Source: an uncultured Candidatus Saccharibacteria bacterium
Lineage (GTDB): Bacteria > Patescibacteriota > Doudnabacteria > UBA920
Assembly (NCBI GenBank): GCA_964490395.1
Contig: CAZBAS010000004.1
Coordinates: forward strand, 30,615 to 94,614
DNA length: 64,000 bases
Direction of reading: 5' to 3'
The translations under genes were made by a program, and so were the position numbers. Shown piece after piece: positions 6,722 to 19,828 of this stretch (positions within the stretch are counted from its first letter, which is position 1; the number at the start of each line of letters is the position of its first letter). The notes beneath the pieces are model-generated. The model saw only the letters and a program-made list of their open reading frames with translations. It was not told where the DNA came from and ran no database searches.

Positions 6722-8218
6722 ATGAAAAAGAAATTATGGATTGTCGCAGGGCTTGGGAGCCTTGCCCTCGTAGCTGCCATCTACCAAGGTGTACAGCTTA
6801 CCCGTCAAAACGCAGCACCTTCATACGAACCCATTAGCAAGCGACGCGCACTAGAACTACAAGCAAACAATCTCAGTGTACAAGCCGGCCCTACCACAGA
6901 TACCATTGTTGTGCCGCCGCCAGCCACTCCTATGGCTGCAGACTCTACTGCACCTGCGGTGCTTGGCACCTCTGTGGCAGTGGACCTTACCGCTCCTACA
7001 CTTGCCTGTTTGAGTGGAAAGCTTACTGCAAAACTTTCTTGGACTGCAGGCAGCGGAGTAACTTCTTATATTATTGAAAAGAAACCAGCAGGCAGCAGCG
7101 ACTCCTCGTGGGTTGCAGTGTCTCCTAAATTACCAGCAACAGTTTTGTCTTATACAGACGCCAACGTGAGCCAAAGCGGCTCATGGACCTACCAAGTACA
7201 CGCAGTAGCAAGCAGGAAGAACATCTACTCAGATGAGCTCACCGTAAACAGCTACTCGTGTAGCGCCGCAGCATTCTCCGGTGGTGCAACTCCTACCCCA
7301 ACACCGCCACCAGCCGCAGCTCCAACTCCTACCCCAACTCCAGCCCCGCAGCCAACCCCATCTCCAATAACTACCGCAACTGTTCCCGCAACTACGAACA
7401 TGCAGTGGGGTGCATATGTAGGCTGGCGCACAACCGATTTGCCTGCGTTTGAATCTACCGTTGGCAAAAAGGTAAACATACAAGCCACCTTCGTGCACTG
7501 GGGAAATGAAAACCAGTTTCCTTCAGACTTAGCAGCGCCTTTGAAAGCTTCGGGTAAAACCTTGCTCATATTCTGGGAAGCCATGGACTACAATGGCGAC
7601 GTCATAAACCAACCTGCATTTAGCTACGACAGAATTCTTGCAGGGGATTATGATAGTTACATAAAGAGCTTTGCAGCCCAAATAAAAGCCTATGGTGCTC
7701 CTGTTATTGTAATTCCGTTTGAAGAAGCAAATGGAGACTGGTACCCATGGTCTGGTACGGTAAACGGCAATACTCCTGCCAAGCACATAGCTGCCTACCG
7801 CAGAGTACATGACCTCTTTGCCGGAGTATCGAACGTAAAGTTTGGATGGAGCATGAACAACGACTCCCAGCCAGACACTACAGCAAACAAACTGGAAAAC
7901 TATTACCCAGGTGATGCGTACGTAGACTACGTGGGTGTAAATGGATTTAACTTCAACAATCCATGGCAAACCTGGGACCAAGTATTTGGCCCAGCACTTA
8001 CCAAGCTTACTCAGTACAACAAACCAACCTACATATTCTCTATGGCCAGTGCTCCTGGCACGCAGAAAGCTACCTGGATAACTACGGGTATAGGCAGCAG
8101 CCTTAAGAAGTATCCCAAGGTTGCTGGCTGGGTATGGTTTAATGAAAACAAGGAACGCGACTGGCGCGTAAACTCAGATGCCACATCGCTGAGTGCGTTT
8201 AAGGCAGTGCTTCCGTAG
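6722..8218 (+). CDS. Secreted GH26-like (clan GH-A) glycoside hydrolase with N-terminal anchor, Fn3-like region and Pro/Thr linker
   Basis: IPFEEANGDWYPW resembles the GH26 HEMNGxWYxW acid/base motif. TPTPTPPPAAAPTPTPTPAPQPTPSP linker. N-terminal TM/signal segment. Confidence 0.55.
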   Translation: MKKKLWIVAGLGSLALVAAIYQGVQLTRQNAAPSYEPISKRRALELQANNLSVQAGPTTDTIVVPPPATPMAADSTAPAVLGTSVAVDLTAPTLACLSGKLTAKLSWTAGSGVTSYIIEKKPAGSSDSSWVAVSPKLPATVLSYTDANVSQSGSWTYQVHAVASRKNIYSDELTVNSYSCSAAAFSGGATPTPTPPPAAAPTPTPTPAPQPTPSPITTATVPATTNMQWGAYVGWRTTDLPAFESTVGKKVNIQATFVHWGNENQFPSDLAAPLKASGKTLLIFWEAMDYNGDVINQPAFSYDRILAGDYDSYIKSFAAQIKAYGAPVIVIPFEEANGDWYPWSGTVNGNTPAKHIAAYRRVHDLFAGVSNVKFGWSMNNDSQPDTTANKLENYYPGDAYVDYVGVNGFNFNNPWQTWDQVFGPALTKLTQYNKPTYIFSMASAPGTQKATWITTGIGSSLKKYPKVAGWVWFNENKERDWRVNSDATSLSAFKAVLP

Positions 8219-8260
8219 GAGGCAAGGTAGAATCTTGAATTACGAATCAAGAATTATGCA

Positions 8261-8296
8261 CAGAGACTCTTCGCAATCGCGGAGAGTCTCTTTTAA
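8261..8296 (+). terminator. Intrinsic terminator after the GH26-like gene
   Basis: Hairpin agagactct-tcgcaatcgcgg-agagtctct followed by tttaag. Confidence 0.5.
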
Positions 8297-8569
8297 GCTA
8301 AGGAGGTTGAATTTTCGCAACAGGGGAGTGTAACGTTGTGTGCGGTAAAAGCAATATGCTAGTTACAGCCTTTGGCCCATTTATCAAAGTTCCGTTGTGC
8401 ATAACTATGCGGTGAGCATATGCATTACGCCACAAAACTGCTTATTTACAAGCAAAGAAAGACTTTGACAAAATAGGCAATAAGTTATATAGTAATACGA
8501 TGGCTTTTTAGCTGTTACTGCTATAACGAGCTATTTTTTATTGTCGTAAAAACGACTAATCCTTTTTCC

Positions 8570-9655
8570 ATGTCTACAGAAACTACTCCATCTAAAGCCA
8601 CAGATGAAATAGAGTACAAGCCAGAGCTGGCGCCTAAAAAGCACAGCATCTCCATACTCATTCCATGCTGGAACGAAGAAAAGACGATAGAGCGTTGTGT
8701 TTTGTCGTGTCTAGAGCAGACCACCCCTGCAGATGAAGTAATTGTGGTAGATGACTCGTGCACCGACTCCAGCCCAGAAATACTTGCTCGCTTTGGCGAC
8801 CGTATTCGCGTGGTGAGGACCCCTAAAAATAGTGGGAACAAAAGCCATGCTCAGGAATACGGTCTTAGTTTTGTACAAGGGGATATAGTCGTTACCACCG
8901 ATGCCGACACAGAAATGCATCCAAAATTTGTTGAAACCATTTTAAAAGATTTCCAGGACCCCACCGTAGCAGCTTCGGGCGGATATGTAGTTAGCCGCGC
9001 CCATAACTGGCTTACTTTGTGCCGTGCCTTTGAATACTGCATAGGGCAAAATATTCACAAACCAGCGCAGCGCTACATAAACTACATGTTCGTTATACCA
9101 GGGGCAGCGGGCGCGTTCCGTACCGAGGTGTTTAAAACCTATGTAAAGTTTGACCACGACACCATTACCGAGGACTTAGACTTTACGTACAAGCTGCACA
9201 AGCAAGGGCTAACCGTTGAGTACAACAAGAACGCCATTGTGTATACGCAGGACCCGGCAACGCTGCACTCCTACATAAACCAAATGCGCCGGTGGTACGG
9301 TGGCGGCTGGCAGTGTCTGATGAAGCATAAGGACATAGTTATTCAGCCAGCAAAGGCACTTGAGTTGTCACTTATGTACATAGAAGGATTGGTGTTTGCA
9401 CTTCTCATATTTATCCTTCCCATCATAAACTTCCACGCACTTGGTTACTTCTTACTAACTTACTTTATTACTACCTCTGTCTTTGCCACCTACACTGCTA
9501 TTCGAGAAAAAAGACTTGCCCTGCTTATAGTGCCTATCCCGTACCTGCCCATAGTATTTATAAACGCCTATATATTTATTGAACAATTTATTAAAGAAGT
9601 CATACTGAGACGGAAGCACTTGGTGTGGTTCAAACCGGAGCGAATACGCATATGA
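8570..9655 (+). CDS. Family 2 glycosyltransferase with C-terminal TM domain
   Basis: GT-A fold signature: ISILIPCWNEEKTIERCVLSCLEQT...VIVVDDSCTDSS...TDADTE. Four C-terminal TM helices. Confidence 0.75.
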   Translation: MSTETTPSKATDEIEYKPELAPKKHSISILIPCWNEEKTIERCVLSCLEQTTPADEVIVVDDSCTDSSPEILARFGDRIRVVRTPKNSGNKSHAQEYGLSFVQGDIVVTTDADTEMHPKFVETILKDFQDPTVAASGGYVVSRAHNWLTLCRAFEYCIGQNIHKPAQRYINYMFVIPGAAGAFRTEVFKTYVKFDHDTITEDLDFTYKLHKQGLTVEYNKNAIVYTQDPATLHSYINQMRRWYGGGWQCLMKHKDIVIQPAKALELSLMYIEGLVFALLIFILPIINFHALGYFLLTYFITTSVFATYTAIREKRLALLIVPIPYLPIVFINAYIFIEQFIKEVILRRKHLVWFKPERIRI

Positions 9656-9773
9656 GTTTAGTCCCTTTTATCGGAATATCCATGACAGTACATCTTGTTA
9701 TTATTGCCGTACAGCAGAGTAGAAAGGCGTTGGCGTTTCTTACCACCGCACGGGTTAAAAAGGAAGTAATTGC

Positions 9774-10247
9774 ATGAACAGATTAATTTCATTTTTTATT
9801 GTTACCATAGTAGCGGTAGCAGTATTTGGCGTAGCTGGCACCATAGTCTGGATAAACATAGCCAACTCTCACTCCAATTACAGTTTTATAAAGCATGAGG
9901 TTGCGGACCACCACCTGTACGAACAGTTCCAGCAAAGAGTCCAGGCCGCTTCTCCAAACTCACCCGAACCAGAGACGGTAACCCCTGCGCCCAGTGAAGC
10001 GGACTCGCAGTCGGGTACTTCCCGCTCCAAAGCGCATGCACTGGTGTGCCAAGAGCTTGGCCAGCGCGACAGTTCTACGCTCTATGCCTATCTTGAAAGC
10101 TCTGGACGCTCAAAGTCGTTTACCACTCGGCAGTTTCTTGCAGAGAAATATGGTATAAACGGCTACAAGGGCAACAGCGTGCAAAACCAGGAGCTGCTGA
10201 AAGCACTGAAAGCCGATGATTTACAGACTGCCCAATGTGTGCAATAA
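9774..10247 (+). CDS. Hypothetical membrane-anchored protein
   Basis: N-terminal TM. No recognisable domain. Confidence 0.4.
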   Translation: MNRLISFFIVTIVAVAVFGVAGTIVWINIANSHSNYSFIKHEVADHHLYEQFQQRVQAASPNSPEPETVTPAPSEADSQSGTSRSKAHALVCQELGQRDSSTLYAYLESSGRSKSFTTRQFLAEKYGINGYKGNSVQNQELLKALKADDLQTAQCVQ

Positions 10248-10277
10248 TATACCAACCCTATCTACATTAGTAAGTAT

Positions 10278-13034
10278 TTGTTTATGAATTTCATGAAGAT
10301 TAAAAAAGCTGCATCTATAGCAGTGGCACTCTTCCTCCTGGTAGCAACTACCATGGTGGGCGCTGCCCCAGCATTTGCTGCAGGACCAAACCTTATTGCT
10401 AACCCTTCCTTAGAAACCGCAGCAGGAGCCCTTCCTGCGAGCTGGCAAAAAGGTGGATTTGGTACTAACACTACAGTGTTTACCTATCCGGTAGCTGGCG
10501 TTGATGGTGCCAATGCAGCAAAAGTAGCCATGACTGCTCGCACTGGTGGCGATGCAAAATGGTTTTTTAACGATGTAGCTATAACTCCAGGAAAGAGCTA
10601 CACCTTTTCCGATCAGTACAAGTCTACCGTAGCAACCAAGCTTGTGGCTCGCTATACCTCCACCACAAATGTACTCAGCTACATAGACATGGGTAGCGTT
10701 GCTTCTTCTGCAGGCGCATGGAAAACATTTACCTATACATTTACTGCTCCTGCTGGCAGCGCCAAGATGACCGTATTCCACCTTATAGCTGCAGTAGGGG
10801 AACTTACGACCGATGCATATTCTTTAACTGAAAATACTGTTACGCCTCCTACAGATACCACTGCTCCAACTGTTGCCTTAACCGCACCTGCGGCAAATGC
10901 TACTGTGTCTAACACCGTAACCCTCAGCGCTACTGCTTCCGACAATGTTGGTGTAGCAGGCGTGCAATTTATAGTAGATGGCGCAAATGTAGGCGCTGAA
11001 GATACTACTGCTCCATACAGCATTTCTTGGGATTCCAAAACTGTTGCAAACGGCAGCCACACTGTTTCGGCAAAAGGCCGGGATGCTGCAGGGAACACTA
11101 CCACTACAACTCCTATTTCTATAACTGTATCTAATACCGTAACCCCTCCGGCAGATACTACTGCTCCAACGGTTACTCTGACCGCACCAGCTGCAAACGC
11201 AACAGTCACCGGCACTATAAATCTTACTGCTACTGCAACTGATAACGTTGCGGTAACGGGCGTGCAGTTTATAGTAGATGGCGCAAATTTTGGCAGCGAA
11301 CTTACTACAGCTCCATACACTGCTGCGCTCGACACGACTACCTTGACCAATGGTGCTCACACCATAGCGGTAGCAGCGCACGATGCAGCAAACAACTCCA
11401 AAACTACTACTGCTATTTCCGTAACGGTATCTAACACTGTAACCCCTCCAGCAACTAACCTTATTGCTAACCACTCTTTGGAGATGGCAACCGGAAGCCT
11501 GCCTACCAACTGGAGCAAGGGGAGCTGGGGTACAAACAACGCAACATTTACCTACCCAGTAGCTGGCGTAGACGGTACAAAAGCCGCTAAAGTTGCCATG
11601 ACTACGTACACCAATGGCGATGCCAAGTGGTTCTTTGATGATGTTGTCATAACGCCTGGTAAAAACTACACCTTCTCTGAGCAGTACAAGTCTACGGTGC
11701 CAACCACCGTTTTAGCTCGCTACACAAATGCAGATGCAAGCGTGGCATATGTTGAATATGCAAACCTTCCTTCTTCGGGCAACCAGTGGACTACGTTCTC
11801 TCATGAATTTACTGCTCCAGCTGGGGTTGCTAAAGTCACTGTATTCCATTTGCTCTCTGCAGTAGGGGAATTGACCATAGATAACTACACCATGGGTGAC
11901 CAGTCCAACAATACTTCCGCCTTCTTCTCACAGGGTATAGTAAGCTTCACGTTTGATGACGGTTGGATCTCCCACTACGACACTGTACTTCCTATACTCA
12001 ACGCAGCTGGTCTTAAAGGTTCGTTCTACATTATTACTGACCCAATGAACCAGGTGGTAGAGCCGAATAAAGTTCTAAACTCTGGGCTTGAAACAGATAG
12101 CGGCACTGGTACTCCAACCAACTGGACAAAGAGCAGCTGGGGTACGAACAATGCTGCGTTTACCTACCCAACTGCTGGTAAAACAGGCAATGGCGCAAAA
12201 GTTGCCATAACCTCCTACACCGATGGCGATGCAAAATGGTTCTTTGATGACATTGCTATAGTGGCAAATGCTCAGTATCGCTTCCGCGATTCCTACAAGA
12301 GCACAACCCCAACTACACTTACAGCTCGCTTTACCATGGCGGACAATACCGTTGCCTACCGCGACCTGGCAGTCTTGCCAAGCAGCAACAACAACTGGGC
12401 TACTACCGACATACCATTTACTGCTCCTGCAAACGTACAAAGCGTAACCATTTTCCACCACCTCGCAAGCGTAGGCGAACTCACTATAGACGATGCTTCA
12501 CTTACTCTGTACGCCATTTACATGAATCCAAGCCAGGTAAAGGATATGCAAGCAGCGGGACATGAAGTTGGTGGCCACACTAAGACACATCCTGACCTTA
12601 CTACCCTTACCGTACAACAGGCAACCGATGAAATTGTTGGTTCTCGCACTGCGCTTCAGAACATTGGCATAACGGTTAACACCATGGTGTATCCGTACGG
12701 TGCTGCAAACCCAACCATACAGCAGATAACCAAGAACGCAGGATATCTTGCTGCTCGCACGGTTGAAGCTGGGTATAACACTAAAGCAACCGATCACTAT
12801 GCGCTTCGTGTGCAGAACGTAGGTGTTGGTACTACCTTGGCCGATGTGCAAGGTTGGGTAACCACTGCCGCTACTGACCACACCTGGCTCATATTGGTAT
12901 TCCACCAGGTAGACCTGAGTGGCGATACCTATGGCACAACTCCAGCCCTGTTCCAGCAAATGGTAGATTACGTAAAAACTCAACCAGTACAGGTCCGCAC
13001 CATGGACGATGTACGAACAGAGCTCAATCCATAA
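10278..13034 (+). CDS. 918-aa secreted multidomain protein: 3x CBM4/9-like modules, 2x bacterial Ig-like modules and a NodB-type polysaccharide deacetylase (CE4) domain
   Basis: Signal peptide. Three copies of NLIANxSLE...WxKGxWGTNxxxFTYPxAG...AKVAxTxxTxGDAKWFFxDVxIxPGKxYTFS. Two copies of TTAPTVxLTAPAANATV...VQFIVDGAN (Big-like). CE4 motifs TFDDGW and HEVGGHTKTHP, with CBM 3 inserted between them. Confidence 0.7.
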   Translation: MFMNFMKIKKAASIAVALFLLVATTMVGAAPAFAAGPNLIANPSLETAAGALPASWQKGGFGTNTTVFTYPVAGVDGANAAKVAMTARTGGDAKWFFNDVAITPGKSYTFSDQYKSTVATKLVARYTSTTNVLSYIDMGSVASSAGAWKTFTYTFTAPAGSAKMTVFHLIAAVGELTTDAYSLTENTVTPPTDTTAPTVALTAPAANATVSNTVTLSATASDNVGVAGVQFIVDGANVGAEDTTAPYSISWDSKTVANGSHTVSAKGRDAAGNTTTTTPISITVSNTVTPPADTTAPTVTLTAPAANATVTGTINLTATATDNVAVTGVQFIVDGANFGSELTTAPYTAALDTTTLTNGAHTIAVAAHDAANNSKTTTAISVTVSNTVTPPATNLIANHSLEMATGSLPTNWSKGSWGTNNATFTYPVAGVDGTKAAKVAMTTYTNGDAKWFFDDVVITPGKNYTFSEQYKSTVPTTVLARYTNADASVAYVEYANLPSSGNQWTTFSHEFTAPAGVAKVTVFHLLSAVGELTIDNYTMGDQSNNTSAFFSQGIVSFTFDDGWISHYDTVLPILNAAGLKGSFYIITDPMNQVVEPNKVLNSGLETDSGTGTPTNWTKSSWGTNNAAFTYPTAGKTGNGAKVAITSYTDGDAKWFFDDIAIVANAQYRFRDSYKSTTPTTLTARFTMADNTVAYRDLAVLPSSNNNWATTDIPFTAPANVQSVTIFHHLASVGELTIDDASLTLYAIYMNPSQVKDMQAAGHEVGGHTKTHPDLTTLTVQQATDEIVGSRTALQNIGITVNTMVYPYGAANPTIQQITKNAGYLAARTVEAGYNTKATDHYALRVQNVGVGTTLADVQGWVTTAATDHTWLILVFHQVDLSGDTYGTTPALFQQMVDYVKTQPVQVRTMDDVRTELNP

Positions 13035-13286: not shown

Positions 13287-15854
13287 ATGAAGTATTTAGT
13301 ATCGAGCCGCTTACGCACAGCTTTGGCAATTGCACTTTCGCTGGTCTTGGCGTTGCAAATGTCAGCTGCACGTATTGCAGTTGCCGCAGACGAAACCACT
13401 CCACTTACCGATGAAGTAGGGGAGCAGGGGAAAGGGTTTACTGACCTTAAATTATTTGTCCACCACAAAGAAGCAGACCTTGGTGTGACTAAAACAGTTG
13501 ACGAGCCTTTGCCAAACATAGGCGGTGCCATCACGTACAGCCTTAGTGTAACGAACTTTGGTCCCGATGACGCAACTGGTGTGGTGGTAACAGATGTGCT
13601 TCCCGAAGGAGTCACATTTGTTTCTGCAGATCCAGCTGCCGAGTACAACAGCGCCACCGGCGTGTGGACCATAGGTGACTTGGCAAATGGTGCTACTGCA
13701 CTGTTAGATATAAATGTAACTGCAAATATGGATGCAGGGGACACTGCTCCAGTAAACACTGCTACAGTCTCGTCCAATACCACAGACCCAAACATGGACA
13801 ACAACAGTGCCAGTGTTACGGTTGAAATTGGTATTCCATCTACGCCGGTAGATGAGCCTCTTGCTCCGTGTGTGGAAGGCCCTGCTCACGTAAACGAAGT
13901 CGTGGCGAGCGCACAAGGCACCCTGAACAATGGGAGCGCTATTACCGACAGTACTCGCACTAACCCAGCGAAAACACTTGGCGCTGCAGATGGTGTATTC
14001 TTCTCACTTGGAAAAAATGGCACAGTAACTGACTCCATGGCTGGCTATGCTGTAGATGTACCAGGGGTAGATGTAAGCATTCACGAAATTACCAATGGCC
14101 GCGACAGTTACCCAGAAGAGCGCGCTAAGGTTGAAGTGAGCCAAGACGGCTCTACGTGGTTTGTAGTTGGTACTGCAAGCGGTAAAGACGCGGGCGGCAT
14201 AAGCAGCTTCGACATAGCACCAACAGGACTTGGTTGGTTCACCATGGTTCGTGTTACCGATACTACTGACTTTACTATTCACGATGCAACTGCAGATGGG
14301 TTCGATTTGGATGCCATAGATGCAACCTATCAGTCGTGTGTATTGGTAGACCCAGCTAAAACCGCGACCTACGACAGCACTACCGGAACCCTGCACTACG
14401 CAATTTCCTGGAACGTTAAGGGTGGTACTGCAAATGTAGTGCTTACCGACGCGCTTCCAGCTGGTATAACCTACGTTGCTGGCTCTGCAGACAATGGTGG
14501 TACATACGATAATGGCACACGCACCCTAACCTGGAATCTTGGTTCCCATGTGGGCGGCGATAGTGGCGTTGTAAAGTTCGATGCCACGCTCGACGCAGCT
14601 TTGGCGCTTAACCAGTGGGCAAGCAGCGTAAAGTCCTTTACTCAAGGAAAAGATGCTGACCTCACTACTGCGGTAGATGCAGTCCGAAGCAACCCAGCAC
14701 AGGCCCTTGGCCCTGCTGAAACTTCTGGTGCACTTTACGATAACCCACTTCCAGACTACGTTGGAAAATTTGTATCTCTTGGATTTACCAACAACCCTAC
14801 GGGCGGCGAACTCGTGCTAGGTTTCGATCATGATATATATAATGGTCCTGGAAATGACCTGCAAATTTTTGAAGTTACGAGCGGCGACAACTACGGCAAT
14901 GAAAGTGCAAAAATTGCTGTAAGCAGCAACGACTCTACCTGGACCGATGTTGGTGTAGTAGTGCGCGATGGTGGTGTGGACCTTGGTTCAGTTACCAGCG
15001 CAAAATATGTTCGCATAACCGATACTTCTAACAAAGCTGAGTTTGAACCTACTGCAGACGCTTTCGATGTGGACGCAGTAAAAGCGCTGCAACTGGTACC
15101 AAACGTATGTAAAGTAGTAAACACCGCACAAGCAAGCTGGACCGTATTTACCGATAACGTCCCAACCACTGCAACATTGCCTGCAGTAGTAACCACTACT
15201 ATAAACCAAAGTGCCTGCGACAACGCCGGTGGTGGTGGCGGTAACGGTGGCGGCAATGGTGGTTCAAATACAGGTACTGGTTCTATCACTGGTTTGGTGT
15301 TTAACGATGCAAACAACAATGCTGCTTTAGACGAAGGTGAATCTTCACTTTCAGGCTGGGTAGTATACCTCGATACAAATGACAATGGCGTGCTCGATGG
15401 CGGCGAAGTTTCCAAAACAACAGCATCCCCATACTTATTTACTGGTCTTGCCGATGGTACCTATACTGTTCGTGAAGTACTGCAGTCTGGCTGGACACAG
15501 ACACTGCCAACCGCAGGAAACAGCTTTAAGTACGTAGTAGCTATTTCTGGCGGCAACGCGGTTACCAATAAAGACTTTGGTAACTTTGTAGCAACAAGCG
15601 GTGGCACAGGTGGTAGTGGTGGTGGTGCTAATGGTGGTGGTGGAACTGTCCCTGCTCCACAAATCCTGGGCGACTCCACAAACACTCCTAACGCAGACAC
15701 AGGTTCTGGCATGGGCGGCGGTGCTCCTACCGGACTAGTGCTAAGCGCAACCGAGCTCCCTCGTACCGGAAACGGCAGCGCAGTACTCCTTCTTGCACTT
15801 TTGGTAGGTGGTAGTGCAGCATTTGCACTTCGCAAGCTACGACAATCGTTGTAA
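13287..15854 (+). CDS. 855-aa LPXTG cell-wall-anchored surface protein with DUF11 repeat and SdrD-B/CnaB-like domains
   Basis: Signal peptide. DUF11-like segment (GVTKTVDEPLPNIGGAITYSLSVTNFGPDDATGVVVTDVLPEGVTFVS). Gly-rich linkers. C-terminal LPRTG, hydrophobic stretch, then RKLRQSL. Confidence 0.7.
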   Translation: MKYLVSSRLRTALAIALSLVLALQMSAARIAVAADETTPLTDEVGEQGKGFTDLKLFVHHKEADLGVTKTVDEPLPNIGGAITYSLSVTNFGPDDATGVVVTDVLPEGVTFVSADPAAEYNSATGVWTIGDLANGATALLDINVTANMDAGDTAPVNTATVSSNTTDPNMDNNSASVTVEIGIPSTPVDEPLAPCVEGPAHVNEVVASAQGTLNNGSAITDSTRTNPAKTLGAADGVFFSLGKNGTVTDSMAGYAVDVPGVDVSIHEITNGRDSYPEERAKVEVSQDGSTWFVVGTASGKDAGGISSFDIAPTGLGWFTMVRVTDTTDFTIHDATADGFDLDAIDATYQSCVLVDPAKTATYDSTTGTLHYAISWNVKGGTANVVLTDALPAGITYVAGSADNGGTYDNGTRTLTWNLGSHVGGDSGVVKFDATLDAALALNQWASSVKSFTQGKDADLTTAVDAVRSNPAQALGPAETSGALYDNPLPDYVGKFVSLGFTNNPTGGELVLGFDHDIYNGPGNDLQIFEVTSGDNYGNESAKIAVSSNDSTWTDVGVVVRDGGVDLGSVTSAKYVRITDTSNKAEFEPTADAFDVDAVKALQLVPNVCKVVNTAQASWTVFTDNVPTTATLPAVVTTTINQSACDNAGGGGGNGGGNGGSNTGTGSITGLVFNDANNNAALDEGESSLSGWVVYLDTNDNGVLDGGEVSKTTASPYLFTGLADGTYTVREVLQSGWTQTLPTAGNSFKYVVAISGGNAVTNKDFGNFVATSGGTGGSGGGANGGGGTVPAPQILGDSTNTPNADTGSGMGGGAPTGLVLSATELPRTGNGSAVLLLALLVGGSAAFALRKLRQSL

Positions 15855-15895
15855 AACGGTTGCCTCTATGGAGCATGTAACATGTAACAAAAGAT

Positions 15896-15928
15896 ACGGA
15901 AAGCTTTGCTTTCCGTATTTTATTTTCT
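15896..15928 (+). terminator. Intrinsic terminator after the LPXTG gene
   Basis: acggaaagc-tttg-ctttccgt followed by attttatttt. Confidence 0.6.
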
Positions 15929-15929
15929 T

Positions 15930-16010
15930 GTTACATGCTTTTTGCTACATGTTACATGTTACATGCTCTACGCTACATGCTCTATGTTACATAGTATGCT
16001 GCATTGCTGT
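15930..16010. repeat. Array of ttacatg/ctacatg heptamer direct repeats
   Basis: tgttacatgctttttgctacatgttacatgttacatgctctacgctacatgctctatgttacat. Inverted copies catgtaacatgtaac lie just upstream of the terminator. Confidence 0.55.
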
Positions 16011-16151: not shown

Positions 16152-16874
16152 ATGCCAAAAGTTACCGTTACTAATCTTTCAAGACGAACTCCAAGCGCTG
16201 CTGCGCCACGACGAAAAGTTGCGGCCGAGCCCACAATGCCCGCGCCAAAAGAAAAAATGACGCTAAAAGCAGCACTGAAGCTGCTTATCTGGGTATGCCT
16301 ATTAAGTGGTGTGTGTTTAAGTCTGATGAATTGGGGGTTTGTTTCTGCGCGCGTCTCCTTCTTCTTTCACAAGCCCAATGCTGCTACGGTTATTCAGCCT
16401 AAAACCGAGGCAACAGCACCTTCAGAAGGGGCGTGGCCTAAAGATACATTGGCCATTCCGAGCCTCGGCATTAGTGCTCCGGTTATATACGATGTAGCGC
16501 AAAATGAAGAAGCATTTCAAGTAGCATTACAGAGCGGCGTGGTACACTATCCAGGTAGTAGTTTGCCGGGCGAAGTTGGGAATGTCTACATATTTGGCCA
16601 CTCTTCGGACTATGCATGGAGCAAGGGGAGTTATAAATCTGTATTTGCGGTGTTGCCGAAAATAGAAAAAGGTGCGGAAATAAAGCTCACCGACAGCAAA
16701 GGTTTTATGTACACATATATAGTTACGAAGCAGTTCGTAGTGGGGCCAAAAGACGTAAGTGTGCTCAGCCAGGACACCAAAGGTAAGCGCATACTTACAG
16801 TACAAACCTCATACCCCATTGGCACTGCCTTAAAACGATACGTGGTACAGGCCGAACTAAGACAGTCAGACTGA
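16152..16874 (+). CDS. Sortase-family (class E-like) transpeptidase homologue with Ser at the canonical catalytic Cys position
   Basis: N-terminal TM. HYPGSSLPGEVGN and FGH motifs. ILTVQTSYP...KRYVVQAEL aligns to class-E LLTLTTC...R, with Ser codon TCA at about 16809..16811. Confidence 0.6.
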   Translation: MPKVTVTNLSRRTPSAAAPRRKVAAEPTMPAPKEKMTLKAALKLLIWVCLLSGVCLSLMNWGFVSARVSFFFHKPNAATVIQPKTEATAPSEGAWPKDTLAIPSLGISAPVIYDVAQNEEAFQVALQSGVVHYPGSSLPGEVGNVYIFGHSSDYAWSKGSYKSVFAVLPKIEKGAEIKLTDSKGFMYTYIVTKQFVVGPKDVSVLSQDTKGKRILTVQTSYPIGTALKRYVVQAELRQSD

Positions 16875-17732: not shown

Positions 17733-18098
17733 ATGCCAGTAGAATCGTACAAAGATCTAATAGTGTGGCAAAAGTCGATACAACTGGTATTGCTCATTTA
17801 CGAACTGACGGAAAAATTCCCAAAGTCTGAAATATATGGACTTACTTCCCAAATGCGCCGGTGCGCCGTTTCCGTGCCACCGAACATTGCTGAAGGGAGA
17901 AGGCGTAGCACCCGAAAAGAGTTTGGACATTTTGTGAGCATCGCATTTGGCTCAGGCTCAGAATTGGAAACGCAGCTCATCATATGTAAACAATTACCCT
18001 TTGGTGCAAGCTTGGACTATGCACATATTGATTCAATCCTTAGCGAAATTATGAAAATGCTGAACACTCTCCTGGTTAAGCTACAAGCTAATTCATAA
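17733..18098 (+). CDS. Four-helix-bundle protein (23S rRNA intervening-sequence protein family)
   Basis: LIVWQKSIQLVLLIYELTEKFPKSEIYGLTSQMRRCAVSVPPNIAEG matches the family pattern. Inserted between the ABC ATPase and permease genes. Confidence 0.65.
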   Translation: MPVESYKDLIVWQKSIQLVLLIYELTEKFPKSEIYGLTSQMRRCAVSVPPNIAEGRRRSTRKEFGHFVSIAFGSGSELETQLIICKQLPFGASLDYAHIDSILSEIMKMLNTLLVKLQANS

Positions 18099-19357: not shown

Positions 19358-19828
19358 GTATCGATGCTAATATACTAATTTACTAATGAATACTAATTAT
19401 ACAAATAAAAACCAAAAGTTAATTTATCCGGAACTCTCTTTTATAATAACTGGGATATGTTTCGATGTTCACAATGCACAAGGGAGGTTTTGCCGAGAAA
19501 AACAATATGCCGATGCAATAGAAATAATATTAAAGGAGCGTCAAATTCCTTATGCAAGAGAGCATAGAGTTGTAGATACAGGCAATGTCATTGATTTCAT
19601 TATTGATGATAGAATTGTCCTAGAACTCAAAGCAAAGAGGCTCATAGAAAAAGACGACTTTTATCAAGTACAACGATATCTGCAGTCTACAAATAAACCA
19701 TTGGGTTTGTTGGTAAACTTTAGAAATCGTTATATAAAACCCATTAGGATTGTCCGAATTGATACGGATGCGCGACAGCGCTTTCTGGATTAGTATCATT
19801 AGTAAATTAGTATATTAGCATCGATACT
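19358..19828 (+). mobile_element. Putative small mobile element: about 38-bp terminal inverted repeats enclosing a single GxxExxY/PD-(D/E)XK gene
   Basis: Left end agtatcgatgctaatatactaatttactaatgaatacta and right end tagtatcattagtaaattagtatattagcatcgatact are reverse complements apart from one indel. Inserted exactly between the stop of one permease gene and the start of the next. Two miniature ORF-less copies occur elsewhere. Confidence 0.55.
19386..19793 (+). CDS. GxxExxY-family protein (PD-(D/E)XK nuclease superfamily)
   Basis: PELSFIITGICFDVHNAQG...YADAIEIILKERQIPYAREHRV...VIDFIIDDRIVLELKAKR...LGLLVNFRN matches the family consensus pattern. Confidence 0.65.
   Translation: MNTNYTNKNQKLIYPELSFIITGICFDVHNAQGRFCREKQYADAIEIILKERQIPYAREHRVVDTGNVIDFIIDDRIVLELKAKRLIEKDDFYQVQRYLQSTNKPLGLLVNFRNRYIKPIRIVRIDTDARQRFLD

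What the first reader, a model, noticed from the sequence alone, without database searches (positions are those of the whole stretch)
16152..16874. Sortase homologue next to an LPXTG substrate has Ser in place of the catalytic Cys
The protein aligns well to class-E sortases: HYPGSSLPGEVGN, FGH, and a C-terminal ILTVQTSYP...KRYVVQAEL matching LLTLTTC...R..V.A.L. At the canonical Cys position the codon is TCA (Ser, about 16809..16811). That is two substitutions away from any Cys codon, so it is unlikely to be a single sequencing error. The gene follows an 855-aa LPRTG-anchored DUF11 surface protein directly. The homologue is either a pseudo-sortase, or a Ser-dependent transpeptidase, which would be mechanistically unusual.
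Basis: seen in the sequence. Interest (0 to 1): 0.65.

Follow-up and report, generated by a model that had tools for sequence, protein, structure and literature searches.

The report
Sortase family using serine, not cysteine
This gene belongs to a large, strongly conserved group of sortase-like enzymes in tiny uncultured (Patescibacteria) bacteria. In this group the normally essential catalytic cysteine is always a serine, and the gene almost always sits right behind a surface protein carrying an LPRTG anchoring signal, so it is probably a working, chemically unusual enzyme rather than a dead gene.

Summary
ORF 16152..16874 (+) is a sortase-fold protein (Pfam PF04203, E=4.8e-25; AF2 pLDDT 89). 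Ser220 (TCA, 16809-16811) sits on the catalytic Cys column; His150 and Arg229 are kept. It is not an error or a decaying gene. All 120 closest database homologues, 111 of the best 150 cluster representatives, and all relatives found in GTDB species genomes have Ser there, using six different Ser codons. dN/dS against orthologues is about 0.04-0.05. The Ser clade carries fixed co-substitutions next to the active site (Gln218 in 230/231, Tyr/Trp221, Asp153). These are absent from 144 Cys-bearing sister sortases of other CPR lineages. In 68 of 77 informative loci the gene lies directly downstream of a secreted protein ending in an LPxTG sorting signal (LPRTG in 63 of the 67 tallied). Three protein clusters are in-frame substrate-sortase fusions, and four loci place the gene between murG and murC. 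Best reading (about 0.6): a dedicated Ser-nucleophile sortase that processes the adjacent LPRTG protein. The main rival is a non-catalytic signal-binding pseudo-sortase. I found no description in the searched literature. I could not test whether the same genomes also carry a Cys sortase.

The parts
13287..15854 (+). Substrate gene: an 855-aa secreted surface protein with an N-terminal signal peptide, 2x DUF11/CLIPPER and an SdrD_B-like domain, carrying a C-terminal cell-wall sorting signal.
   Evidence: DUF11 E=8.7e-39; SdrD_B E=7.6e-8. The syntenic orthologue in L001 is annotated CLIPPER+SdrD_B.
15756..15770 (+). LPRTG pentapeptide of the sorting signal (aa 824-828), preceded by T-E.
   Evidence: Read. 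The same [TD][ET]-LPRTG is found upstream of the Ser-sortase in 63 related loci.
15780..15851 (+). Hydrophobic segment AVLLLALLVGGSAAFAL (15780-15830) and basic tail RKLRQSL (15831-15851) of the sorting signal.
   Evidence: sequence read directly.
15891..15921 (+). Terminator-like hairpin with a T-run between the substrate and sortase genes. It is flanked by GTTACAT heptamer repeats, including a 19-nt perfect inverted repeat at 15871-15889 / 15950-15968.
   Evidence: These are consensus and repeat scans only; function is not shown.
16152..16874 (+). Ser-type sortase gene (240 aa).
   Evidence: Pfam Sortase E=4.8e-25. AF2 pLDDT 89.4, and all top PDB fold matches are sortases. dN/dS is 0.036-0.05 against orthologues.
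16263..16328 (+). N-terminal membrane-anchor helix (aa 38-59), type II topology as in sortases.
   Evidence: AF2 helices 38-59 and 61-72. The hydrophobic sequence LKAALKLLIWVCLLSGVCLSLM is read.
16443..16865 (+). Sortase beta-barrel catalytic domain (aa 98-238).
   Evidence: Pfam match covers aa 100-236. AF2 strands: E143-149 ends at His150, E213-221 ends at Ser220/Tyr221, and E228-239 starts at Arg229.
16599..16601 (+). His150 (CAC) in the invariant F-G-H-S-S-D motif; catalytic His equivalent.
   Evidence: Invariant in 121/121, 146/146 and 115/115 sequences.
16608..16610 (+). Asp153 (GAC), a Ser-clade hallmark: 97% Asp, versus mixed N/D/Y/G in Cys relatives.
16803..16805 (+). Gln218 (CAA), two residues before the nucleophile on strand beta7. 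It is Gln in 230/231 Ser-type sequences and hydrophobic (I/M/L/V/F) in all 144 Cys-type relatives.
16809..16811 (+). Ser220 (TCA) at the position of the catalytic Cys.
   Evidence: It is Ser in all 120 nearest homologues. Codons across species are TCT/TCG/TCC/TCA/AGC/AGT.
16836..16838 (+). Arg229 (CGA); catalytic Arg equivalent at the start of beta8.
   Evidence: Invariant wherever the column is covered.

Best explanation
The gene encodes a membrane-anchored, extracellular sortase-fold acyl-transferase of a Patescibacteria (Doudnabacteria-like) lineage. In this lineage the nucleophile has been switched from Cys to Ser. The proposed mechanism runs in three steps. (1) The co-encoded surface protein is exported by Sec and held in the membrane by its C-terminal hydrophobic segment and basic tail. 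(2) The enzyme binds the [T/D][E/T]-LPRTG signal. Ser220, activated by His150, attacks the Thr-Gly bond to form an ester acyl-enzyme, with Arg229 (and probably the clade-specific Gln218) stabilising the oxyanion or substrate and Asp153 possibly orienting His150. (3) The acyl-enzyme is resolved by an amine, most likely the peptidoglycan precursor lipid II, which anchors the protein to the wall. What is shown: the fold; the positions of His, Ser and Arg at the canonical strand ends; clade-wide invariance; purifying selection; co-substitutions; near-obligate synteny and fusions with LPRTG substrates; and the presence of peptidoglycan-synthesis genes in these genomes. What is inferred: that Ser is the working nucleophile, the roles of Gln218 and Asp153, the acceptor, and transpeptidation rather than hydrolysis.
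For: Fold: Pfam Sortase E=4.8e-25. The AF2 model has pLDDT 89.4 and pTM 0.78, with His150, Ser220 and Arg229 at the ends of beta4 and beta7 and the start of beta8. The top 50 PDB fold hits shown are all sortases.
Conservation: all 120 nearest homologues, down to about 45% identity, have H/S/R. Of the best 150 representatives at 50% clustering, 111 have Ser and 29 have Cys, with His and Arg invariant. Minimum pairwise domain identity within the Ser clade is 27%, yet Ser is retained.
Selection: six Ser codons are used at this site across species. dN/dS is 0.05 and 0.036 against orthologues whose synonymous sites are near saturation.
Re-tooled active site: Gln218 co-occurs with Ser in 230/231 sequences and with Cys in 0/144. 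Asp153, Tyr/Trp221, Ala226 and Pro169 are also clade-specific.
Substrate linkage: of 82 non-redundant loci, 68 have an LPxTG sorting-signal protein immediately upstream on the same strand or fused, 5 lack upstream sequence, and 4 lie between murG and murC. The pentapeptide is LPRTG in 63. Substrates vary from about 200 to 1558 aa, but the signal is constant.
Rosetta-stone fusions: substrate-LPRTG-TM-Ser-sortase fusions occur in three separate protein clusters (P0131, P0139, P0142).
No competitor seen: 1.32 Mb of flanking DNA from about 80 genomes holds no Cys sortase and no LPXTG protein away from a Ser-sortase, apart from one tandem second substrate.
Acceptor plausibility: peptidoglycan genes murD-ftsW-murG-[Ser-sortase]-murC are present.
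Against: Nothing here is biochemical. In S. aureus SrtA the C184S mutant is reported to lose most activity (as cited in PMC4827206), so Ser is not a drop-in replacement. Activity would depend on the inferred compensating changes. I could not scan whole genomes, so a Cys sortase elsewhere in the same genomes that actually processes LPRTG is not excluded. If every genome had one, only about 1.6 would be expected in the sampled flanks, so finding none is weak evidence. The 80 genome loci were retrieved partly with a QTS[YW]P pattern, so their uniform Ser is partly by construction. The unbiased counts are those.
Confidence: 0.6

Rival explanations
1. Pseudo-sortase. The protein keeps the sortase fold and the signal-binding groove but does not catalyse. 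It binds or retains the LPRTG tail of its neighbour (as a chaperone, a membrane-retention factor or a regulator), while any covalent anchoring is done by a Cys sortase elsewhere or not at all.
For: SaSrtA C184S is reported to lose most activity. Conserved synteny and a conserved signal would also be expected for a binding partner. Co-occurrence with a Cys sortase could not be tested.
Against: His150, Ser220 and Arg229 are invariant wherever covered in more than 230 Ser-type sequences, down to 27% domain identity. A binder has no obvious need for all three. Clade-specific polar substitutions appear exactly beside the nucleophile (Gln218, Asp153). No Cys sortase was found in 1.32 Mb of flanks. 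LPXTG proteins occur only next to Ser-sortases. When the gene duplicates, both copies stay Ser-type (L056, L078).
Confidence: 0.2
2. Ser-dependent enzyme with a different outcome. It is either a signal-specific hydrolase that releases the surface protein at LPRT|G, or a transferase to a non-peptidoglycan acceptor (lipid, glycan, S-layer, or another protein as in pilus polymerisation).
For: Ester acyl-enzymes are more prone to hydrolysis relative to aminolysis than thioesters (general chemistry). The envelope chemistry of these bacteria is poorly known. The window's neighbours include glycan-modifying genes (GH26, GT2, polysaccharide deacetylase).
Against: Four loci place the gene inside the lipid II synthesis cluster between murG and murC. 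The complete tripartite cell-wall sorting signal is retained. PBPs show that Ser acyl-enzymes can transpeptidate efficiently (established knowledge).
Confidence: 0.17
3. Artefact or recent pseudogene: a sequencing or assembly error at the codon, or a decaying sortase copy.
For: None beyond the a priori oddity of Ser at this site.
Against: The same residue occurs in hundreds of independent assemblies, with six codons. The ORF is intact, dN/dS is about 0.04-0.05, and the predicted fold is high-confidence.
Confidence: 0.01

Closest known systems
Cys-type sortases of other CPR/Patescibacteria lineages (Saccharibacteria, Berkelbacteria and others; NCBI names them 'class D/E sortase' or 'sortase'); examples P0215, P0231, P0232, P0312
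   Same: They are the nearest sequence relatives, with up to about 58% domain identity. They share G-H-S-S after the His, T-[C/S]-x-P-x-G-T...R around the nucleophile, the N-terminal membrane anchor and the fold.
   Different: They have Cys at the nucleophile, a hydrophobic residue (I/M/L/V/F) at -2 instead of Gln, T/W/V at +1, and a variable residue in place of Asp153. The three loci inspected have no adjacent LPXTG substrate. In a neighbour-joining tree with hallmark columns masked, 28 of 29 form a clade separate from all Ser-type sequences.
Class D sortase (e.g. Clostridium perfringens SrtD, PDB 4D70)
   Same: It is the best solved-structure match by sequence profile (E=2e-13) and among the top fold matches. 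It is also the best NCBIfam class score. Like this protein, it is a dedicated sortase encoded near its substrate.
   Different: It has a Cys nucleophile. The score is far below the class D cut-off (51-55 vs 140-165 bits). Class D signals are LPxTA-type (NCBIfam description 'LPxTATN-specific'), whereas here the signal is LPRTG.
Class E sortase (Streptomyces SrtE, Thermobifida fusca SrtE)
   Same: Fold match (TM about 0.65-0.7) and a T-x-x-P motif after the nucleophile.
   Different: NCBIfam class E scores 46 bits against a cut-off of 160. Class E enzymes prefer LAxTG signals (established knowledge), whereas here the signal is LPRTG. They have a Cys nucleophile.
Class C sortase (e.g. Actinomyces oris SrtC2, PDB 8T28)
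   Same: The motif TLVTCTPLGINTHR aligns residue for residue with TLQTSYPIGTALKR. It is also clustered with its substrate genes.
   Different: It has a Cys nucleophile and polymerises pilins. No lid motif or pilin features were examined or seen here. NCBIfam class C scores 35 bits against a cut-off of 160.
Natural Cys/Ser nucleophile swaps within one protease fold (PA clan: chymotrypsin-like Ser proteases vs viral 3C Cys proteases); Ser acyl-enzyme transpeptidases (PBPs)
   Same: These are analogies only: the same fold can work with either nucleophile, and Ser ester intermediates can be resolved by amines (established knowledge).
   Different: They have unrelated folds and are not members of the sortase family.

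Membership tests
Sortase superfamily (Pfam PF04203 / MEROPS C60) | Eight-stranded sortase beta-barrel domain recognised by the family profile | tested here: met
   PF04203 E=4.8e-25, 88 bits vs cut-off 26.6. TIGR01076 scores 44 vs 39.35. The AF2 model plus Foldseek returns only sortases among the hits shown.
Sortase superfamily (Pfam PF04203 / MEROPS C60) | Catalytic Cys in the TLxTC motif at the end of beta7 | tested here: not met
   Ser220 occupies the column. There is no Cys anywhere in the domain. So this is a member by fold and homology but not a 'cysteine transpeptidase' as the family is defined.
Sortase superfamily (Pfam PF04203 / MEROPS C60) | Catalytic His (end of beta4) and Arg (start of beta8) | tested here: met
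   His150 and Arg229 are aligned and invariant. Strand positions come from AF2.
Sortase superfamily (Pfam PF04203 / MEROPS C60) | N-terminal membrane anchor with an extracellular catalytic domain | tested here: met
   Hydrophobic helix at aa 38-59. Topology itself is inferred.
Sortase superfamily (Pfam PF04203 / MEROPS C60) | Substrate with a tripartite sorting signal (LPXTG-like motif, hydrophobic segment, basic tail) | tested here: met
   The neighbour 13287..15854 ends LPRTG + 17 hydrophobic residues + RKLRQSL. The same arrangement occurs in 68 of 77 informative loci.
Sortase superfamily (Pfam PF04203 / MEROPS C60) | Transpeptidation of the Thr-Gly bond to a cell-wall amine | not testable with these tools
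   Needs biochemistry or mass spectrometry.
Class D sortase (NCBIfam NF033746 / NF058671) | Score at or above the curated class cut-off | tested here: not met
   51 and 55.5 bits against cut-offs of 165 and 140.
Class E sortase (NCBIfam NF033747) | Score at or above the curated class cut-off; LAxTG-type signal | tested here: not met
   46.3 bits against a cut-off of 160. The signal is LPRTG.
Pseudoenzyme / decaying paralogue | Relaxed constraint on former catalytic residues and on the gene | tested here: not met
   H/S/R are invariant. dN/dS is 0.036-0.05. Synonymous codon turnover occurs at Ser220.
Formylglycine-type Ser/Cys modification motif ([CS]-x-P-x-R) | Arg at +4 of the Ser/Cys | tested here: not met
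   The motif is S-Y-P-I-G (Gly at +4, invariant). Considered only because of the S-x-P, and rejected.

The most novel reading that the evidence does not exclude
These are the first natural sortases that run on a serine nucleophile. The clade is ancient and species-rich, spanning at least 173 GTDB species and at least 111 clusters at 50% identity. It converted a Cys-His-Arg transpeptidase into a Ser-His-Arg (+Gln/Asp) one and became the sole, dedicated anchoring enzyme for LPRTG surface proteins in Doudnabacteria-like CPR bacteria. That would make them thiol-independent, oxidation-insensitive sortases with a strict LPRTG specificity.
Probability: 0.5. Interest if true: 0.85.

Novelty: new variant of a known kind. 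Interest (0 to 1): 0.72.

Why it matters
Sortases are defined, classified (MEROPS C60) and targeted by drugs as cysteine transpeptidases. A large natural clade that keeps the fold, the His and Arg, and the LPXTG substrate, but has fixed Ser plus a specific set of neighbouring changes, has three consequences. (i) It would be a natural experiment showing what it takes to switch the nucleophile in this fold. (ii) It could supply oxidation- and thiol-reagent-resistant enzymes with LPRTG specificity for protein ligation ('sortagging'). (iii) It bears on how ultra-small CPR bacteria build the surface they use to attach to hosts. The hypothesis can be tested directly with a recombinant ectodomain and an LPRTG peptide. 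If the protein proves inactive, it would be a rare example of a deeply conserved pseudo-sortase locked to its former substrate.

Tried and rejected
- Sequencing error or pseudogene: rejected.
- Another Cys taking over the catalytic role: rejected. 191 of 231 Ser-type ectodomains are Cys-free and no column exceeds 13% Cys.
- Alternative genetic code or recoding: rejected. Both TCN and AGY codons occur at the site, and no known code reads these as Cys (established knowledge).
- Formylglycine-type modification motif: rejected, because the motif is S-x-P-x-G and not S-x-P-x-R.
- Second sortase or other LPXTG proteins in the 64-kb window: none found.
The single genome scan therefore used Ser-type patterns, and co-occurrence with Cys sortases stayed untested.
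- Search with a profile of Cys relatives: the named hits are Saccharibacteria, Saccharimonadales and Berkelbacteria (one Methylomirabilota label), none Doudnabacteria. No 'longest contig' length matched any Ser-locus contig length. This is only weak evidence against co-occurrence.
- Model coordinates are not exposed, so active-site distances could not be measured.
- Biopython NJ timed out and was replaced by my own NJ implementation.
- Literature: no paper describing a Ser-type sortase. Meheust et al. 2019 (PMC6744442) note that sortases are common in CPR bacteria but say nothing on the nucleophile in the sortase passages retrieved.
- Rfam scan of the window: no hits.

Full report
**1. The observation**

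ORF 16152..16874 (+) encodes 240 aa. Codon 220 is TCA at 16809-16811. It matches Pfam Sortase over aa 100-236 (E=4.8e-25, 88 bits) and passes the generic NCBIfam sortase model. It falls far below every class-specific cut-off: class D 51-55 bits, class E 46, class C 35, against cut-offs of 140-165.

Pairwise alignments to solved sortases and a 66-sequence profile search of the PDB both put Ser220 on the catalytic Cys. For example, LLTLQTSyPiGtaLkR aligns over LLTLVTCTPLGINTHR of A. oris SrtC2. His150 and Arg229 fall on the catalytic His and Arg.

The only Cys residues in the protein (49 and 55) are in the membrane helix.

The upstream gene 13287..15854 encodes an 855-aa DUF11/SdrD_B protein. 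It has a signal peptide and a textbook sorting signal: TE-LPRTG, 17 hydrophobic residues, then RKLRQSL.

**2. Not an error and not a decaying gene**

- A search of 5.8 billion proteins returned 396 hits. All 120 listed, down to about 45% identity, have Ser at this column. They also share invariant F-G-H-S-S-D and L-Q-T-S-[YW]-P-x-G-T-x-x-x-R motifs.
- An exhaustive profile search of 1.84 billion cluster representatives gave 848 hits at E<=1e-30. Of the best 150, 111 have Ser, 29 have Cys and 6 are truncated. His and Arg are invariant.
- A scan of one genome per GTDB species found relatives in 173 species. I examined 80 loci. All 86 sortase ORFs in these and the earlier loci have Ser, encoded by TCT (28), TCG (24), TCC (18), TCA (13), AGC (2) and AGT (1).
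- Caveat: one of the two scan patterns contained QTS[YW]P, so that uniformity is partly by construction. The codon turnover is still informative.
- Nei-Gojobori dN/dS of the window gene against its two closest orthologues is 0.05 and 0.036, with synonymous sites near saturation.
- AlphaFold2 with the family alignment gives pLDDT 89.4 and pTM 0.78. His150 lies just after strand 143-149, Ser220/Tyr221 at the end of strand 213-221, and Arg229 at the start of strand 228-239. This is the canonical beta4/beta7/beta8 arrangement. All top PDB fold matches shown are sortases of classes A, C, D and E.

**3. A distinct clade with a re-tooled active site**

I compared 231 Ser-type sequences with 29 Cys-type nearest relatives, then with 115 further Cys-type sequences. 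Most conserved columns are shared: GHSS, P222, G224, T225, R229.

Six columns are specific to the Ser clade:
- Ser220.
- Gln218: 230/231 in the Ser type, against I/M/L/V/F in all 144 Cys-type sequences.
- Tyr/Trp221.
- Asp153: 97%, against mixed N/G/D/Y in Cys relatives.
- Ala226.
- Pro169.

Gln218 is two residues before the nucleophile on the same strand.

A neighbour-joining tree with these six columns masked puts 28 of 29 Cys-type sequences in one clade apart from all Ser-type sequences. This fits one main Cys-to-Ser transition.

Named Cys-type relatives come from Saccharibacteria, Saccharimonadales and Berkelbacteria. Named Ser-type proteins come from Doudnabacteria and unclassified Patescibacteria.

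**4. Linkage to the substrate**

I tallied 82 non-redundant loci, counting the window:

| Context of the Ser-sortase gene | Loci |
|---|---|
| LPxTG sorting-signal protein ending within 1.2 kb upstream, same strand | 66 |
| In-frame fusion with the substrate | 1 |
| Overlapping upstream LPVTG protein (L084) | 1 |
| No upstream sequence available | 5 |
| Between murG and murC in the dcw cluster | 4 |
| Other | 5 |

- The pentapeptide, tallied for 67 of these substrates, is LPRTG in 63, LPVTG in 3 and LPGTG in 1. The L084 substrate (LPVTG) was tallied separately. The motif is usually preceded by [T/D][E/T].
- Substrates range from about 200 to 1558 aa with different domains, so the constant element is the signal.
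- Three separate protein clusters (P0131 = L050 ORF, P0139, P0142) are in-frame fusions. They run: DUF11 or other surface domains, then LPRTG, a hydrophobic segment, a basic tail, the sortase membrane helix, and the Ser-sortase domain.
- In 1.32 Mb of flanking DNA there is no Cys sortase. No genuine LPXTG protein lies away from a Ser-sortase, apart from a second tandem substrate in L083.
- Where the gene is duplicated (L056, L078), both copies are Ser-type.
- Three loci of Cys-type relatives show no adjacent LPXTG protein.

**5. Interpretation**

A pseudo-enzyme would not be expected to keep all three catalytic positions invariant over this depth. Nor would it be expected to acquire fixed polar residues beside the nucleophile.

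The most economical reading is a working Ser-His-Arg acyl-transferase dedicated to the neighbouring LPRTG protein. Peptidoglycan precursors are the likely acceptor, given the murG/murC context and the presence of a dcw cluster.

A chemical rationale follows, and it is inference. Ser-based acyl transfer depends more than thiol chemistry on a general base and on oxyanion stabilisation, which is what Asp153 and Gln218 could provide.

Three points weigh against this reading. The simple C184S mutant of S. aureus SrtA is reported to lose most activity (PMC4827206). No biochemistry exists for these proteins. I also could not check whether the same genomes carry a Cys sortase elsewhere: if each had one, only about 1.6 would be expected in the sampled flanks, so finding none is weak evidence.

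I give 0.6 to the active Ser transpeptidase. I give 0.2 to a non-catalytic signal-binding pseudo-sortase. I give 0.17 to a Ser enzyme with another outcome (release by hydrolysis, or a non-peptidoglycan acceptor). I give 0.01 to artefact.

**6. Comparison with the known, and novelty**

By homology and fold this is a sortase-superfamily member. It fails the family's defining chemical feature (the catalytic Cys) and fits none of the curated classes A-F.

Its closest solved relative by profile is C. perfringens SrtD (E=2e-13). Its closest sequence relatives are Cys-type CPR sortases.

Seven full-text literature searches found no description of a natural Ser-type sortase. The CPR protein-family survey that highlights sortases does not mention the nucleophile in the sortase passages retrieved (PMC6744442). 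The library lacks most subscription journals, so prior mention cannot be excluded.

I rate it a new variant of a known kind, with interest 0.72.

Noticed in passing
window 15868-15993: The 298-bp gap between the substrate and sortase genes holds a terminator-like hairpin (15891-15921, followed by a T-run). It sits inside GTTACAT(G) heptamer tandem repeats, with a 19-nt perfect inverted repeat at 15871-15889 / 15950-15968. This could be a regulatory or operator site; the sortase may have its own promoter.
   Followed up: partly
window 17733-18098 and 19386-19793: Two small 'selfish-looking' genes sit inside the downstream ABC/MacB-FtsX transporter operon. One is a four-helix-bundle / 23S-rRNA-IVS-type protein (TIGR02436, E=2e-34). 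The other is a GxxExxY protein (TIGR04256, E=1.6e-18). The GxxExxY gene is absent from the otherwise syntenic relative L001, where the two permease genes are adjacent.
   Followed up: partly
L003/L035 9965-10627, L018 3113-3727, L045 9959-10570, L078 9851-11099: In four genomes the Ser-sortase has no adjacent substrate. Instead it is inserted in the core cell-division/peptidoglycan cluster between murG and murC. In L078 it is present there as two tandem Ser-type copies.
   Followed up: partly
P0131 (= L050 8879-10432), P0139, P0142: These are in-frame fusions of an LPRTG surface protein to the Ser-sortase. The basic tail of the sorting signal doubles as the cytoplasmic N-terminus of the sortase (e.g. 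...LPRTGAGAAYLLLVNLPLLF-MRRLKK-ALAALFLL...). It is unclear whether the sortase is also translated from the internal ATG.
   Followed up: partly
L015 518-1282; L014 1160-1894; L062 7971-8441 (-): These ORFs have PEP-CTERM-like C-termini (e.g. ...VPEPLTLISCGAGLLALGLVRRKPRED). They occur in loci of Ser-sortase-bearing Patescibacteria and would hint at an exosortase-type system in the same organisms. Some may be spurious ORFs.
   Followed up: no
L038 9944-10585, L073 1637-2704, L083 9983-10615: In these three species the catalytic Ser is encoded by AGT or AGC rather than TCN. Both Ser codon families are one step from Cys TGY, so these lineages might have arisen from Cys independently, or passed through Cys or Thr.
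   Followed up: no
P0141, P0144, P0147 (336-369 aa); L073 1637-2704: A subgroup of Ser-sortases carries an extra extracellular N-terminal region with a bacterial TSP3 (calcium-binding) repeat ahead of the catalytic domain.
   Followed up: partly
window 6722-13034: Upstream of the cassette lies a surface-glycan-looking gene set: GH26 mannanase-like, GT2 glycosyltransferase, and a 918-aa secreted protein with Big_7 Ig repeats and a polysaccharide deacetylase domain. It is conserved in synteny with L001 (83% identical sortase).
   Followed up: partly
L055 (DATJFD010000080.1, labelled Candidatus Binatia) and several TPA_asm MAGs labelled Gammaproteobacteria or Saccharibacteria: Ser-sortase/LPRTG cassettes occur in assemblies whose record titles name non-CPR or other-CPR taxa. 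These are probably automatic mislabels or mis-binned contigs rather than true distribution.
   Followed up: no
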